Source: Bacteroidales bacterium (GTDB lineage Bacteria > Bacteroidota > Bacteroidia > Bacteroidales > JAOZQN01). From it: a DNA stretch of 45,644 nucleotides. The notes under the pieces were generated by a model. It was not told where the DNA came from, did not search any database, and saw only the letters and a program-made list of their open reading frames with translations. The position numbers and the translations under genes were made by a program. The stretch's first letter is position 1; the number at the start of each line of letters is the position of its first letter. Shown here piece after piece: positions 7,836 to 9,709 of the stretch. The stretch is taken from assembly GCA_029932195.1 (NCBI GenBank), contig JAOZQN010000003.1:1-45644 (forward strand), given 5' to 3'.

Positions 7836-9173
7836 TTAGATAACCTTTCCTTCTTTTATTCGCTCTTTTTTTATACCTTCATTAAGTATTTCTATATCAA
7901 CTATTTTACTGTTGTTGTCGGCTGCATGAATTGCACAATATTTTAGAACATTTACAATACTTCCTCCTGTAATCTCGTATTCTTCGGCTATTTCTTTTAA
8001 GTTTATTTCTGGGTCTAGTTTTAATGATTTTGAGAAATAATTTTGCCACAGTTTAAGTCTCTGTTTTGCTTTTGGCATAGGAAAATATAGTATTGACTGA
8101 AATCTACGAGTAAAAGCTTCGTCCATATTAGACTTTAGGTTAGAAGCTAAAATTATTGTTCCATTATAATTTTCTGTTCTTTGCAGAAGATATGCAACCT
8201 CCTGATTAGCATATCGTTCTTGCGACGACTGTGTTTTTGTTCGTTTACCAAAAATAGCATCTGCTTCGTCAAAAAACAGTATCCAGTCTTTATTTTCTGC
8301 CATATCAAAAATGCGAGCAAGATTTTTTTCTGTTTCACCAACCCACTTAGAAACTACCATAGATAAATCTATTTTATACACATCTTTTTTCGTCTTTTTA
8401 CCAAGTAAAGAGGCTGCAAAAGTTTTTCCAGTTCCAGGTGGTCCGTAAAATAAAGCTCTGTATCCAGGTTTTATTATTTCGTCTAATTTCCATTCATTAA
8501 GTATTTTATTGCTATGTTTTATCCACAATAAAATATCGTCCATGTCTCTAATTAAATTTTCGCCAGCAATAAAATCTTCCCAAGTTAATTTTGTTGTAAT
8601 AAGTTTTGCAGGAAATTTTGAACTAAAATTTGGTTTTGCTGCTTCTCCAAAGGTGAAAAGTTCAAAAAACTCTTGCGAAATTTCGAGAGTTCCGCTTAAT
8701 TCTGGTTCGTTGTCTTCTGCTGGGGATAGTTTTAAAATATTATGTTTTATAAAAAGATGTTCGTTTCGGAACAATTTTATAATAGCAAGCTTGGTGTGTA
8801 AACTGCTTGCTCCTGCAAGAAATGCAAGAGTTTCTCCCATAGGAACAAAGCCAGAATGATTTTTTGCTTTTATTCCTCCAAACTCAGTAAAAACTCTGTT
8901 AAACTGTTTGTTTCTTGTAAAAAAAACATCTAATACTTGTGGTTGTAAATGTGATGCAAGCGTAAGTATTATTGCTAACCTTTCAAGTCCAGAAAACTTG
9001 TAGTGTATTATAAATCTTGAATATACAGAGTTATCGAGGCTTAGGTCTGGTGGTTCAGTATTTAGGGTTTGAGTTTTATTTTGTTCACTAAAATATAGTT
9101 CAAATCTAACTTTTATTACTTCTCTAAGCCAATTTATCTCTTTCTGTAAAGAAATTATGTTTGAATTTAACAT
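7836..9173 (-). CDS. AAA+ ATPase of the eCIS-associated (Afp15-like) type
   Basis: 445 aa. Walker A GPPGTGKT, Walker B ILFFDEADAIFGKR, and a long N-terminal non-ATPase domain. Lies immediately downstream of a tail-tube gene. Confidence 0.75.
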   Translation of the reverse strand: MLNSNIISLQKEINWLREVIKVRFELYFSEQNKTQTLNTEPPDLSLDNSVYSRFIIHYKFSGLERLAIILTLASHLQPQVLDVFFTRNKQFNRVFTEFGGIKAKNHSGFVPMGETLAFLAGASSLHTKLAIIKLFRNEHLFIKHNILKLSPAEDNEPELSGTLEISQEFFELFTFGEAAKPNFSSKFPAKLITTKLTWEDFIAGENLIRDMDDILLWIKHSNKILNEWKLDEIIKPGYRALFYGPPGTGKTFAASLLGKKTKKDVYKIDLSMVVSKWVGETEKNLARIFDMAENKDWILFFDEADAIFGKRTKTQSSQERYANQEVAYLLQRTENYNGTIILASNLKSNMDEAFTRRFQSILYFPMPKAKQRLKLWQNYFSKSLKLDPEINLKEIAEEYEITGGSIVNVLKYCAIHAADNNSKIVDIEILNEGIKKERIKEGKVI

Positions 9174-9175
9174 TT

Positions 9176-9268
9176 GGTTGTTGGTTTTTTGCTTTTAGCT
9201 GTTGGTTTTTAGCTATTGGCTTTTTAGTCGCATTGCGAAGCCAAAAGCCAAAAACCAATTGCCAAAAG
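9176..9268. repeat. C-type imperfect palindrome (about 90 bp) filling the tube-ATPase intergenic space
   Basis: Arms are built from TTGG(C/T)TTTT(T)AGC-like units and their complement, centred on GTCGCATTGCGAAG. The 9161..9343 plus-strand track ORF (WFFAFSCWFLAIGF...) is a translation artefact of it. Confidence 0.6.
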
Positions 9269-9709
9269 CTATTCTTTTATAACTGTAACAATATTTTCTA
9301 CAACAAATGTAAGTTTTTCGATAGATATTTCGCTTGCTTGTGAGTTCATGTCTGGTTGTTCCCATTTTAATACATGGGTGAGTGTTAGCTCCCAGGTAAA
9401 TACATGTTCTCGTAGTTCATTTAATAGCGAAATAACCACTACTTCTCCATATCCGTCTTCTCTATTTACGGTATTGTCGTGCCAAGTTTTATAATCTTCG
9501 TCGCTTGCAAATAGTGCTTTTGTAAGAACTACGTCGTCAAATTGTTGTAAGCCAGGTTGTGCTGTTACCCAACCAGTTTTTCCGTCGCAGTAATTCATTA
9601 CATCAAGTGTAGATGTTAGTCCACTTACTTCGGAGCATACTATTGTTATGTCGCTCCAACTTACTTCAAAGTTATATTTTGCTATGGGGTATGCTTGTTC
9701 GTCTGCCAT
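9269..9709 (-). CDS. Phage-tail/eCIS tube protein (T4 gp19-like, PF06841-type)
   Basis: 146 aa. YPIAKYNFEVSW...CSEVSGL...QFDDVVLTKALF...W ... ISIEKLTF matches the conserved pattern of contractile-tail inner tube proteins. Confidence 0.75.
   Translation of the reverse strand: MADEQAYPIAKYNFEVSWSDITIVCSEVSGLTSTLDVMNYCDGKTGWVTAQPGLQQFDDVVLTKALFASDEDYKTWHDNTVNREDGYGEVVVISLLNELREHVFTWELTLTHVLKWEQPDMNSQASEISIEKLTFVVENIVTVIKE

What the first reader, a model, noticed from the sequence alone, without database searches (positions are those of the whole stretch)
7836..9709. Isolated contractile-injection-system pair (tail-tube protein plus Afp15-like AAA+ ATPase) with no sheath, baseplate or spike genes nearby
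9269..9709 has the hallmarks of a gp19-like inner tube protein. 7836..9173 is an AAA+ ATPase (GPPGTGKT / ILFFDEAD) with the long N-terminal domain typical of eCIS ATPases. Canonical eCIS loci (Afp, PVC, MAC and others) hold 15-20 contiguous genes.

Here the gene upstream of the tube is an unrelated sensor protein, and the downstream genes are unrelated secreted proteins. A DUF4157 effector-like gene, a family known to be enriched at eCIS loci, sits about 5 kb away (973..3093), separated by a MITE, dispersed repeats and a DUF1016 nuclease gene.

Three readings are possible. This could be the eroded, rearranged edge of an eCIS locus. The rest of the machine could be encoded elsewhere. Or a tube-ATPase pair could have been retained for another role.
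Basis: partly seen in the sequence, partly recalled or inferred. Interest (0 to 1): 0.65.

Follow-up and report, generated by a model that had tools for sequence, protein, structure and literature searches.

The report
eCIS cargo-loading genes at contig edge
The tube protein and ATPase are real contractile-injection-system genes, but they look isolated mainly because the assembled contig stops in a high-copy repeat where a close relative carries the rest of the machine, so this is most likely an ordinary injection-system locus with one unusual extra tube gene.

Summary
9269-9709(-) is an Afp1/Alg1-type inner tube protein. 7836-9173(-) is the Afp15/Pvc15/Alg15-type AAA+ ATPase.

The "isolation" is mostly an assembly effect. 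The window is a whole 45.6-kb contig, and it ends 81 nt beyond the operon in a very high-copy repeat.

In the closest long relative (L099/L103, about 80% nucleotide identity) the four genes tube-ATPase-DUF4157 cargo-295 aa are contiguous. They face, 40 nt away, the 3' end of the structural operon (tape measure and upstream genes). In the window a 4.7-kb insertion of mobile and defence-like DNA splits this operon.

The runs that hold the window also hold contigs for the tape measure and its upstream neighbour. These match the window's depth and its divergence from L103. One of these runs also holds a sheath-tube1-tube2 contig of matching G+C.

So this is the cargo-loading module of an AlgoCIS-type eCIS: the ATPase loader, a Cgo-like DUF4157 cargo and a possible chaperone.

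The modest new point is the tube gene itself. It is a third, lineage-specific, fast-evolving but selected paralog of the main tube gene, and it stays next to the ATPase. Physical adjacency to the structural operon is inferred, not shown.

The parts
9269..9709 (-). 'tube3': a 146-aa Afp1/Alg1-type inner tube protein. It is a lineage-specific paralog of the main tube gene and sits next to the ATPase.
   Evidence: Pfam PF06841 E 3e-20. PDB 7ADZ Alg1 E 1e-19. Fold hits Alg1, Pvc1 and Afp1. It is 59.6% identical over its full length to the 146-aa gp19 gene that follows the ATPase in canonical locus L015, against 53.7% to tube1. It forms its own clade, sister to tube1. dN/dS is 0.07-0.15.
7836..9173 (-). 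Afp15/Pvc15/Alg15-type AAA+ ATPase, the putative cargo loader.
   Evidence: PF00004 E 3e-27. Walker A at residues 244-251 and Walker B at 298-305. Full-length homologs at 40-63% identity directly follow CIS_TMP in most of the 80 GTDB loci and in L015/L016.
3123..7805 (.). A 4.7-kb insertion relative to L099/L103 that splits the operon. It holds a 493-aa ORF (6235-7716), a 281-aa ORF (5186-6031), a 90-aa ORF (4443-4715), a DUF1016/YhcG nuclease (3283-4329) and dispersed repeats.
   Evidence: Window 83-3122 and 7806-9724 are collinear with L099 14431-11391 and 11369-9442, where the ATPase and DUF4157 genes lie 77 nt apart. Repeats are mapped. The nuclease hits PDC-S02 at E 6e-120.
973..3093 (-). 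Cgo-like cargo protein of 706 aa. It has a low-complexity N-terminus (residues 1-65), an eCIS_core/DUF4157 domain with HEFTH at residue 125, and a variable C-terminal region.
   Evidence: PF13699 E 2e-25. N-terminal composition and motif. The ortholog lies directly after the ATPase in L099/L103. DUF4157 proteins flank the ATPase in dozens of loci. The architecture matches Cgo1/Cgo2 (PMC8894135; bioRxiv 10.64898/2026.05.27.728243).
82..969 (-). 295-aa protein conserved downstream of the cargo gene. It is a possible cargo chaperone: its C-terminal half resembles the T3SS class-I chaperone / YbjN fold.
   Evidence: Orthologs occur in L099/L103 (68% identity) and next to the detached ATPase in L079 (35% identity over the full length). 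The single-sequence model is poor (pLDDT 47, C-terminal half 65-77). Its top PDB fold hits are ExsC, SycH, SchA, CesT and YbjN at E 4e-3 to 5e-2. This is only a weak lead.
1..81 (.). Contig end. A high-copy repeat (positions 1-55) lies immediately after the operon, at the place where the relative has the 3' end of the tape-measure gene.
   Evidence: Word depth 4394 against 14.2 in run X1. Further copies lie at window 20477-20531 and 41682-41728. L101 and L102 break at the same point. In L099/L103 CIS_TMP ends 40 nt after the 295-aa gene.

Best explanation
The tube-ATPase pair is the start of the accessory (cargo-loading) operon of an AlgoCIS/Afp/PVC-type extracellular contractile injection system in a low-GC Bacteroidota bacterium from hydrothermal-vent metagenomes.

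The operon reads tube3, AAA+ ATPase, DUF4157 cargo, 295-aa chaperone-like protein. In this genome it is interrupted by a 4.7-kb insertion of mobile and defence-like DNA. It most probably faces the 3' (tape-measure) end of the structural operon across a repeat element that broke the assembly.

Proposed mechanism, by homology with Alg15 and Pvc15: the hexameric AAA+ ATPase recognises the disordered N-terminus of the DUF4157 cargo, unfolds it and threads it into the lumen of the growing tube. The 295-aa protein may hold the cargo before loading. Tube3 is a diverged copy of the main tube subunit. It is inferred to contribute a specialised part of the tube linked to loading or to the distal end, not to act on its own.

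Shown here: the gene identities, the orthology, the synteny in relatives, and the presence of tape-measure and neighbouring genes at the same depth in the same runs.

Inferred: physical adjacency to the structural operon, the roles of tube3 and the 295-aa protein, and the loading mechanism itself.
For: 1. Canonical relative L008+L015 has the order sheath, tube1, tube2, DUF5908, CIS_tube, VgrG, PAAR, gp25, baseplate..., CIS_TMP, ATPase, 146-aa gp19. The window's tube is closest to that terminal gp19.

2. L099/L103 is about 80% identical in nucleotides and collinear with the window. It reads tube3, ATPase, DUF4157(707 aa), 295 aa, then convergently CIS_TMP(1319 aa), c211, 225 aa, 1237-aa PKD protein.

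3. Contigs of the window's own runs (X1 = SRR21545387, X2 = SRR21545385) were laid on L103.
- They include a 2654-nt contig on the TMP 3' part (depth 15.5), a 1915-nt contig on the TMP 5' part plus c211 (depth 15.1 in X1, 9.5 in X2) and a 504-nt contig on the 225-aa gene.
- All are 80-81% identical to L103, as the window's own pieces are (depth 14.2-14.3).
- Only one such lineage is seen in X1.

4. A sheath-tube1-tube2 contig (L098, G+C 31%) comes from the same run, SRR21545387.
- It is 83% identical in nucleotides to L006, which comes from the same JGI sample as L103.
- The identity ranks of sheaths and ATPases fit the pairings (window, L098) and (L099, L006).

5. The contig end lies in a very high-copy repeat, and other assemblies break there too.

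6. In most of the 80 GTDB loci this ATPase directly follows CIS_TMP, and DUF4157 proteins sit beside it.

7. Literature: Alg15 is required for loading Cgo1/Cgo2 (disordered N-terminal domain + DUF4157 + C-terminal domain) into the tube lumen (PMC8894135; bioRxiv 10.64898/2026.05.27.728243). Pvc15 loads PVC payloads (PMC11495950, PMC9054023).
Against: - No read or contig bridges the repeat between the 295-aa gene and the tape-measure contig, so adjacency rests on synteny with one relative.
It is assigned to the window's organism only by shared run, G+C and consistent divergence.
- In other relatives the ATPase really is detached. L011 has no eCIS structural gene within 4.6 kb upstream or 10 kb downstream. 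L014 has the ATPase alone among housekeeping genes. In L079/L097 the ATPase lies about 28 kb beyond the fetched part of the structural operon. Gene position is therefore fluid in this clade.
- No expression data could be found.
Confidence: 0.78

Rival explanations
1. The pair, with its cargo genes, is truly detached. The organism has a complete eCIS, but its structural operon lies elsewhere in the genome and not directly beyond the contig end.
For: Detached ATPases exist in relatives. In L079 the ATPase lies about 28 kb beyond the fetched part of the structural operon on the same 2.49-Mb contig and on the opposite strand. L011 and L014 have no structural genes in their flanks. The region is full of repeats and insertions.
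Against: The closest long relative has the operon 40 nt from the tape-measure gene, with the same gene order and orientation up to the window's last gene. The X1 tape-measure contig starts only 179 nt outside the TMP stop codon, which fits a small repeat insertion at that junction.
Confidence: 0.17
2. An orphan tube-ATPase pair has been retained for a role independent of any contractile machine, or is a decaying remnant after loss of the structural genes.
For: No structural gene lies in the 45.6-kb window. L014 keeps the ATPase alone, and L011 keeps the pair without nearby structural genes.
Against: Tape-measure, c211 and 225-aa gene contigs with the window's depth and divergence are present in the same runs. 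A sheath-tube1-tube2 contig is in the same run. The pair is still linked to a Cgo-like cargo gene. Purifying selection on both genes argues against decay.
Confidence: 0.04
3. The ATPase is an anti-phage AAA+ ATPase (IetA/IteA-like) in a defence island and has nothing to do with injection systems.
For: The AAA core hits PADLOC IetA (E 1e-32) and NCBIfam IteA (E 5e-26, far below the cut-off of 510 bits). Candidate defence genes PDC-S02, PDC-M29 and HEC-01 are scattered through the window.
Against: These hits cover only the generic AAA core, residues about 209-432. Full-length homologs, including the 230-residue N-terminal region, sit directly after CIS_TMP in most of the 80 GTDB eCIS loci. No IetS-like protease partner was found by Pfam in the neighbouring genes. 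The adjacent gene is a tube protein.
Confidence: 0.01

Closest known systems
AlgoCIS of Algoriphagus machipongonensis: Alg1 tube, Alg15 AAA+ ATPase, Cgo1/Cgo2 DUF4157 cargo
   Same: Both are in phylum Bacteroidota. The tube's best PDB match is Alg1 (7ADZ). The ATPase is 45-46% identical over its full length to those of Algoriphagus loci L052-L059, which have the order TMP, ATPase, DUF4157. The cargo architecture is the same: disordered N-terminus + DUF4157 + variable C-terminus (PMC8894135; bioRxiv 10.64898/2026.05.27.728243).
   Different: Here the accessory genes form a separate operon that, in the relative, converges on the structural operon instead of continuing it. There is an extra tube paralog next to the ATPase, which none of the GTDB loci shows, the Algoriphagus loci among them. 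A 295-aa chaperone-like gene follows the cargo gene. A 4.7-kb insertion splits the operon.
Photorhabdus PVC and Serratia Afp: Pvc1/Afp1 tube, Pvc15/Afp15 ATPase, payload genes at the 3' end
   Same: Same tube fold (6J0B and 6RAO hits). An AAA+ ATPase lies at the 3' end of the locus and is followed by payload genes. Pvc15 loads payloads through their N-terminal signals (PMC11495950, PMC9054023).
   Different: Only distant sequence similarity: about 25% identity for the tube in the fold alignment. PVC payloads lack DUF4157. No ATPase-adjacent tube paralog is described for Afp or PVC; this last point rests on my own knowledge and was not tested here.
Nearest canonical relative: Logan SRR28370020_13110 (L008+L015)
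   Same: It has the same ATPase-146-aa gp19 pair (63% and 60% identity), placed directly after CIS_TMP at the end of a complete eCIS operon.
   Different: There the order is ATPase then tube, co-directional with the structural genes. The genome is 38-41% G+C, against 30.5% for the window. No DUF4157 gene follows the pair.

Membership tests
eCIS (Afp/PVC/AlgoCIS-type extracellular contractile injection system) | Inner tube protein of the gp19/Afp1 family | tested here: met
   Pfam PF06841, PDB sequence hits and fold hits.
eCIS (Afp/PVC/AlgoCIS-type extracellular contractile injection system) | Contractile sheath gene in the same genome | tested here: inconclusive
   None in the window. A sheath-tube1-tube2 contig (L098) is in the same run, with matching G+C and consistent divergence, but its depth could not be measured and it has no physical link to the window.
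eCIS (Afp/PVC/AlgoCIS-type extracellular contractile injection system) | Baseplate and spike genes (gp25, gp6/J-like, VgrG, PAAR) | tested here: inconclusive
   Absent from the window. They are present in relatives L008, L097 and L182. They could not be searched for in the window's own organism.
eCIS (Afp/PVC/AlgoCIS-type extracellular contractile injection system) | Tape-measure protein (CIS_TMP) | tested here: met
   Not in the window. Contigs 80% identical to and collinear with L103's CIS_TMP occur in all four runs that hold the window. Their depths match the window's: X1 15.5 and 15.1 against 14.2-14.6, X2 6-9.5 against 8-10. Assignment to the same genome rests on depth and divergence, not on a physical link.
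eCIS (Afp/PVC/AlgoCIS-type extracellular contractile injection system) | All core genes contiguous in one locus | tested here: inconclusive
   The contig ends in a high-copy repeat 81 nt after the operon. The relative L099/L103 shows contiguity with the tape-measure end.
Afp15/Pvc15/Alg15-type eCIS AAA+ ATPase | Classical AAA domain with intact Walker A and Walker B motifs | tested here: met
   GPPGTGKT at residues 244-251 and ILFFDEAD at 298-305. PF00004 E 3e-27.
Afp15/Pvc15/Alg15-type eCIS AAA+ ATPase | Full-length homology, including the N-terminal region, to ATPases encoded directly after the tape measure in eCIS loci | tested here: met
   99-100% query coverage at 50-91% identity. In most of the 80 GTDB loci and in L015/L016 the homolog directly follows CIS_TMP.
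Afp15/Pvc15/Alg15-type eCIS AAA+ ATPase | Required for cargo loading into the tube | not testable with these tools
   Shown only for Alg15 and Pvc15 in the literature (bioRxiv 10.64898/2026.05.27.728243; PMC11495950).
Cgo-like DUF4157 eCIS cargo | Disordered N-terminus + DUF4157 (HExxH) + variable C-terminal domain, encoded beside the ATPase | tested here: met
   PF13699 at residues 66-136. HEFTH at residue 125. Residues 1-65 are 14% hydrophobic and rich in N, T and Q. The gene is adjacent to the ATPase in L099/L103. Disorder is judged from composition only; no disorder predictor was run.
T6SS subtype iii (Bacteroidota) | Hcp-type tube with TssB/TssC sheath and a ClpV-type or other T6SS-specific ATPase | tested here: not met
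   The tube matches gp19/Afp1-type proteins well ahead of Hcp: fold E 3e-9 against at best 1e-4. The ATPase is a single-ring Cdc48-like AAA protein whose orthologs follow CIS_TMP. No Tss genes were found in the window.
Iet (IetA-IetS) anti-phage system | IetA ATPase paired with an IetS serine protease | tested here: not met
   Only the AAA core matches IetA. There is no protease neighbour.

The most novel reading that the evidence does not exclude
Tube3 is not a redundant tube subunit. It is a specialised, rapidly diversifying tube paralog that co-evolves with the loader ATPase and the cargo set. It could form the layer onto which the ATPase docks, or a cargo-specific lining of the lumen.

If so, the small module tube3 + ATPase + cargo + chaperone would be a mobile 'loading cassette' that can move around the genome and be swapped between eCIS loci. 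This would explain why the pair is found after the tape measure (L015), convergent to it (L099) or far from it (L011).
Probability: 0.2. Interest if true: 0.55.

Novelty: new member of a known kind. Interest (0 to 1): 0.25.

Why it matters
Mainly as a caution. An apparently orphan tube-ATPase pair in a metagenomic contig was an artefact of a contig that ends in a repeat, combined with a mobile-DNA insertion. Counts of 'partial' or 'degenerate' eCIS loci taken from fragmented assemblies will be inflated in the same way.

The locus also adds a marine-vent Bacteroidota member to the AlgoCIS-type systems. It has a clear loader-cargo-putative chaperone module, which bears on current efforts to understand and re-program eCIS cargo loading.

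The third tube paralog stays with the ATPase, and its protein sequence changes 3-6 times faster than the main tube's (dN) while remaining under purifying selection. It is a small, testable lead on how loading is coupled to tube assembly.

Tried and rejected
1. Remnants of structural genes in the window. phmmer with 23 proteins of the canonical locus, plus Pfam on all ORFs of at least 90 aa, found none.

2. The 585-aa, 1025-aa and Y_Y_Y genes as hidden CIS parts. They are conserved next to the pair in L011 (58, 45 and 52% identity). However, they are signal-peptide Ig-repeat and propeller proteins, absent from L099/L103 and from all 80 GTDB loci. I treat this as synteny by descent; it remains unexplained.

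3. A closer genome in the GTDB representatives. The best hit is only 58% identical.

4. A JGI scan with the 295-aa family returned only the L099 contig again.

5. IMG/VR scans with the sheath gave nothing closer than 60% identity, so those loci could not be used for laying reads.

7. An odd joint, 10892 to 15503, seen once when contigs were laid on L103. It was not reproduced in the narrower run, and the other joints of this kind had sides of 20-24 nt, so I treat it as a chance short match.

8. The promoter and terminator scan was uninformative in this AT-rich DNA: 60 promoter-like sites against 52 expected.

9. No RNA runs are available.

The single-sequence model is poor, so the chaperone-like fold is only a lead.

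11. Similarity between the window's Y_Y_Y protein and the sensor kinase next to canonical locus L016 is only superfamily-level: 25% identity over 158 aa.
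Full report
**What is in the window**

The window is low-GC (30.5%) and Bacteroidota-like, with PorP/SprF, CHU_C and Por_Secre_tail genes. It comes from hydrothermal-vent metagenomes.

- ORF 9269-9709(-) is a 146-aa Phage_T4_gp19 protein (E 3e-20).
- ORF 7836-9173(-) is a 445-aa AAA protein (E 3e-27). 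It has GPPGTGKT at residues 244-251 and ILFFDEAD at 298-305.
- ORF 973-3093(-) has an eCIS_core/DUF4157 domain (E 2e-25).
- No other CIS gene was found anywhere in the window. This holds for Pfam and for phmmer with 23 proteins of the nearest canonical locus.

**The tube protein**

Its best matches among solved structures are the AlgoCIS tube Alg1 (7ADZ, E 1e-19), Anabaena All3324, Pvc1 and Afp1. Afp5 scores much lower. An AlphaFold model built on 17 homologs (pLDDT 77.5) gives the same ranking by fold. Hcp proteins come far behind.

**The ATPase**

The AAA core is Cdc48-like. The protein as a whole belongs to a very large family that aligns over its full length. I fetched 80 loci from GTDB representative genomes and labelled their ORFs with the canonical proteins. 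In most of them the ATPase directly follows the CIS tape-measure gene, and DUF4157 proteins lie beside it in dozens of them. It is therefore the Afp15/Pvc15/Alg15 ortholog. The PADLOC IetA hit covers only the AAA core, and I reject it as a reading.

**Where the pair comes from**

The nearest canonical relative is a 30.5-kb Logan contig, fetched as loci L008 and L015. Its gene order is:

- Pvc16_N, sheath, tube1 (151 aa), tube2, DUF5908, CIS_tube, VgrG, PAAR, gp25, baseplate genes
- then CIS_TMP, the ATPase, a 146-aa gp19 protein and a 227-aa protein

The window's tube is 59.6% identical over its full length to that terminal 146-aa protein. It is 53.7% identical to tube1.

In a tree, these ATPase-linked tubes ('tube3') form their own clade, sister to tube1 of the same lineage. 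None of the 80 GTDB loci has a tube gene next to the ATPase. The pair is therefore the terminal module of the canonical operon in a small clade, not a random remnant.

**Why it looks isolated here**

A member of the 90% cluster of the ATPase led to a 28.5-kb contig (L099; the same contig as JGI L103). It is collinear with window 83-3122 (78% nucleotide identity) and with window 7806-9724 (80.5%). Its gene order is:

- housekeeping genes
- tube3, ATPase, DUF4157 (707 aa), 295 aa
- then, 40 nt further on the opposite strand, CIS_TMP (1319 aa), the c211 ortholog, a 225-aa gene and a 1237-aa PKD-repeat protein running towards the contig end

Compared with this, the window differs in two ways.

1. 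A 4.7-kb block (3123-7805) separates the ATPase from the DUF4157 gene. The block holds a DUF1016/PDC-S02 nuclease, three ORFs with no family hit and several dispersed repeats.
2. The contig ends 81 nt after the 295-aa gene.

Positions 1-55 of the window are a repeat with word depth 4394 in run X1, against 14.2 for the unique sequence beside it. The two other public contigs that carry this gene stop within 56-97 nt of it. The window is the whole contig. The left edge is therefore an assembly break at the exact point where the relative has the structural operon.

**Does this organism have the rest of the machine?**

I laid the Logan contigs of the four runs that hold the window onto L103 at 80% or more identity. 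X1 is SRR21545387 and X2 is SRR21545385, by matching contig lengths. The contigs laid in X1 were:

- the window's own DUF4157 and 295-aa pieces (depth 14.2-14.3, 81% identity)
- a 2654-nt contig collinear with the 3' part of the tape-measure gene (depth 15.5, 80% identity), which starts 179 nt outside the TMP stop codon
- a 1915-nt contig covering the 5' part of TMP and all of c211 (depth 15.1 in X1 and 9.5 in X2, 81% identity)
- a 504-nt contig on the 225-aa gene (depth 12.7)

The window's own depth is 14.2-14.6 in X1 and 8-10 in X2, with X3 and X4 similarly matched. Only one L103-like lineage is visible in X1. The tape-measure and c211 genes therefore belong, with good probability, to the window's organism.

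Separately, sheath P0135 with tube1 and tube2 sits on a contig of the same run (L098, G+C 31%).

- L098 is 83% identical in nucleotides to L006, which comes from the same JGI sample as L103.
- The identity ranks of sheaths and ATPases fit the pairings (window, L098) and (L099, L006).
- The cluster of P0135 also records a 27,381-nt NCBI contig that the look-up does not list. The same is true of the window's own 45,644-nt NCBI contig, whereas the NCBI contig of the sibling sheath P0137 is listed. This fits both unlisted contigs coming from the same withheld assembly. That is an inference about how the tool behaves, not a measurement.

I could not measure L098's depth, and nothing bridges the repeat.

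**Caveat from other relatives**

The position of the module is fluid in this clade.

- In L012/L013 (91% identity) the pair is preceded by nSTAND and transposase-like genes.
- In L011 (64-67% identity) the order is ATPase then tube3, with no structural gene within 4.6 kb upstream or 10 kb downstream.
- In L014 the ATPase stands alone among housekeeping genes.
- In a Bacteroidales MAG the ATPase (L079) lies about 28 kb beyond the fetched part of the structural operon (L097), on the opposite strand of the same 2.49-Mb contig. It sits beside a homolog of the window's 295-aa gene.

A detached but complete system therefore remains a fair rival for the window. I put it at about 0.17.

**How it most likely works**

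In AlgoCIS, Cgo1 and Cgo2 are built from a disordered N-terminus, DUF4157 and a variable C-terminus, and they sit in the tube lumen (PMC8894135). The AAA+ protein Alg15 and its ATPase activity are needed to load them through the N-terminal loading sequence (bioRxiv 10.64898/2026.05.27.728243). Pvc15 plays the same role in PVCs (PMC11495950, PMC9054023).

The window's 706-aa protein has the same build:

- residues 1-65 are rich in N, T and Q and only 14% hydrophobic
- DUF4157 spans residues 66-136, with HEFTH at residue 125
- a long C-terminal region follows

I therefore read the operon as loader + cargo.

The 295-aa protein has no family hit. A poor single-sequence model (pLDDT 47, C-terminal half 65-77) finds only T3SS class-I chaperones and YbjN proteins at the top of the PDB list (E 4e-3 to 5e-2, target-normalised TM-score about 0.6). 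This is a weak but coherent hint that it is a cargo chaperone.

Tube3 is under purifying selection (dN/dS 0.07-0.15). Its dN is 3-6 times that of tube1 at comparable divergence: 0.171 for window-L099 against 0.035 for L098-L006, and about 0.31 against 0.05 at the L015/L008 level. A specialised structural role linked to loading or to the distal end of the tube is plausible but untested.

**Verdict**

This is an ordinary cargo-loading end of an AlgoCIS-type eCIS. It sits at a contig edge and is split by mobile DNA. It is a new member of a known kind.

The points of modest interest are the ATPase-linked third tube paralog, the convergent accessory operon and the chaperone-like gene.

Interest 0.25.

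Noticed in passing
window 1-55; 20477-20531; 41682-41728: A very high-copy short repeat with word depth 4394 in run X1, against about 14 for unique sequence. It ends the contig and recurs twice inside it. Many different flanks are seen in the runs, so it behaves like a MITE-type element that fragments assemblies of this organism.
   Followed up: partly
window 4766-4995 = 20183-20413 (99.6%); 11569-11675 = 27233-27339 (97%); 6057-6128 similar to 11620-11675 and 27284-27358; 13816-14021 = 29569-29765 (88%); 4670-4771 = 7681-7781 (86%): Several families of dispersed intergenic repeats, with depth peaks of 36-308x in the runs. One pair brackets the segment that carries the 281-aa and 493-aa ORFs inside the 4.7-kb insertion.
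   Followed up: partly
window 3283-4329 and 27295-28212; 12210-13736 + 11674-12213; 33343-34743 + 32680-33339: Candidate defence genes by PADLOC: two DUF1016/YhcG nucleases (PDC-S02, E about 1e-120), an AriA-like ATPase with a PDC-M29B partner, and a HEC-01 A/B pair (ATPase + DUF4276). The PDC-M29 pair lies between the Y_Y_Y gene and the 1025-aa gene, which are adjacent in relative L011, so it looks like an insertion.
   Followed up: partly
window 18269-20026, 14075-17152, 9915-11534 (all on the minus strand); L011 10062-16571: A block of two paralogous signal-peptide proteins made of Ig-like repeats (585 aa, and 1025 aa which looks like a tandem duplication of the unit) plus a Reg_prop/Y_Y_Y protein with C-terminal transmembrane helices and no kinase domain. 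The block lies next to the tube-ATPase pair both here and in L011 (58, 45 and 52% identity) but in a different relative order. It is absent from L099/L103 and from the 80 GTDB eCIS loci. Whether the link is functional or just inherited synteny is unexplained.
   Followed up: partly
window 17165-18199 (-): A 344-aa ORF with no Pfam, NCBIfam or PADLOC hit sits between the two Ig-repeat genes. Those genes are only 130 nt apart in L011, so this is probably another insertion.
   Followed up: no
window 34784-35062 and 34960-36048 (-): Arginine deiminase is split into two overlapping ORFs: Pfam ADI profile positions 4-296 in one and 314-377 in the other. This is a frameshifted gene or a sequencing error.
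   Followed up: no
L011 6639-9470; L012 5295-5899; L008/L009 1-1399 (-): A family of about 940-aa proteins with no Pfam hit follows the tube-ATPase pair in L011 and L012. It also flanks the upstream end of the canonical eCIS locus L008. It may be an alternative cargo or accessory gene, and it suggests that the cargo set differs between close relatives.
   Followed up: partly
L079 6489-7391 and 11328-12230; L097: In a Bacteroidales MAG (2.49-Mb contig) the eCIS ATPase lies about 28 kb beyond the fetched part of the structural operon, on the opposite strand, among hybrid histidine kinases. It is flanked by a homolog of the window's 295-aa gene and by a secreted repeat protein that shares a short motif with the canonical 231-aa protein.
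   Followed up: partly
L014 9759-11544: In this relative the eCIS-type ATPase (67% identity) stands alone. On one side is a divergent 927-aa ORF with no family hit. On the other is a bAvd/23S_rRNA_IVP-like gene, a family known as an accessory of diversity-generating retroelements (from my own knowledge).
   Followed up: no
window 21069-27135, 36136-37323, 40013-41554: Several large secreted proteins carry T9SS sorting domains (Por_Secre_tail, CHU_C), and there is a PorP/SprF gene. The organism therefore has a type IX secretion system with surface or secreted cargo encoded near the eCIS module.
   Followed up: no
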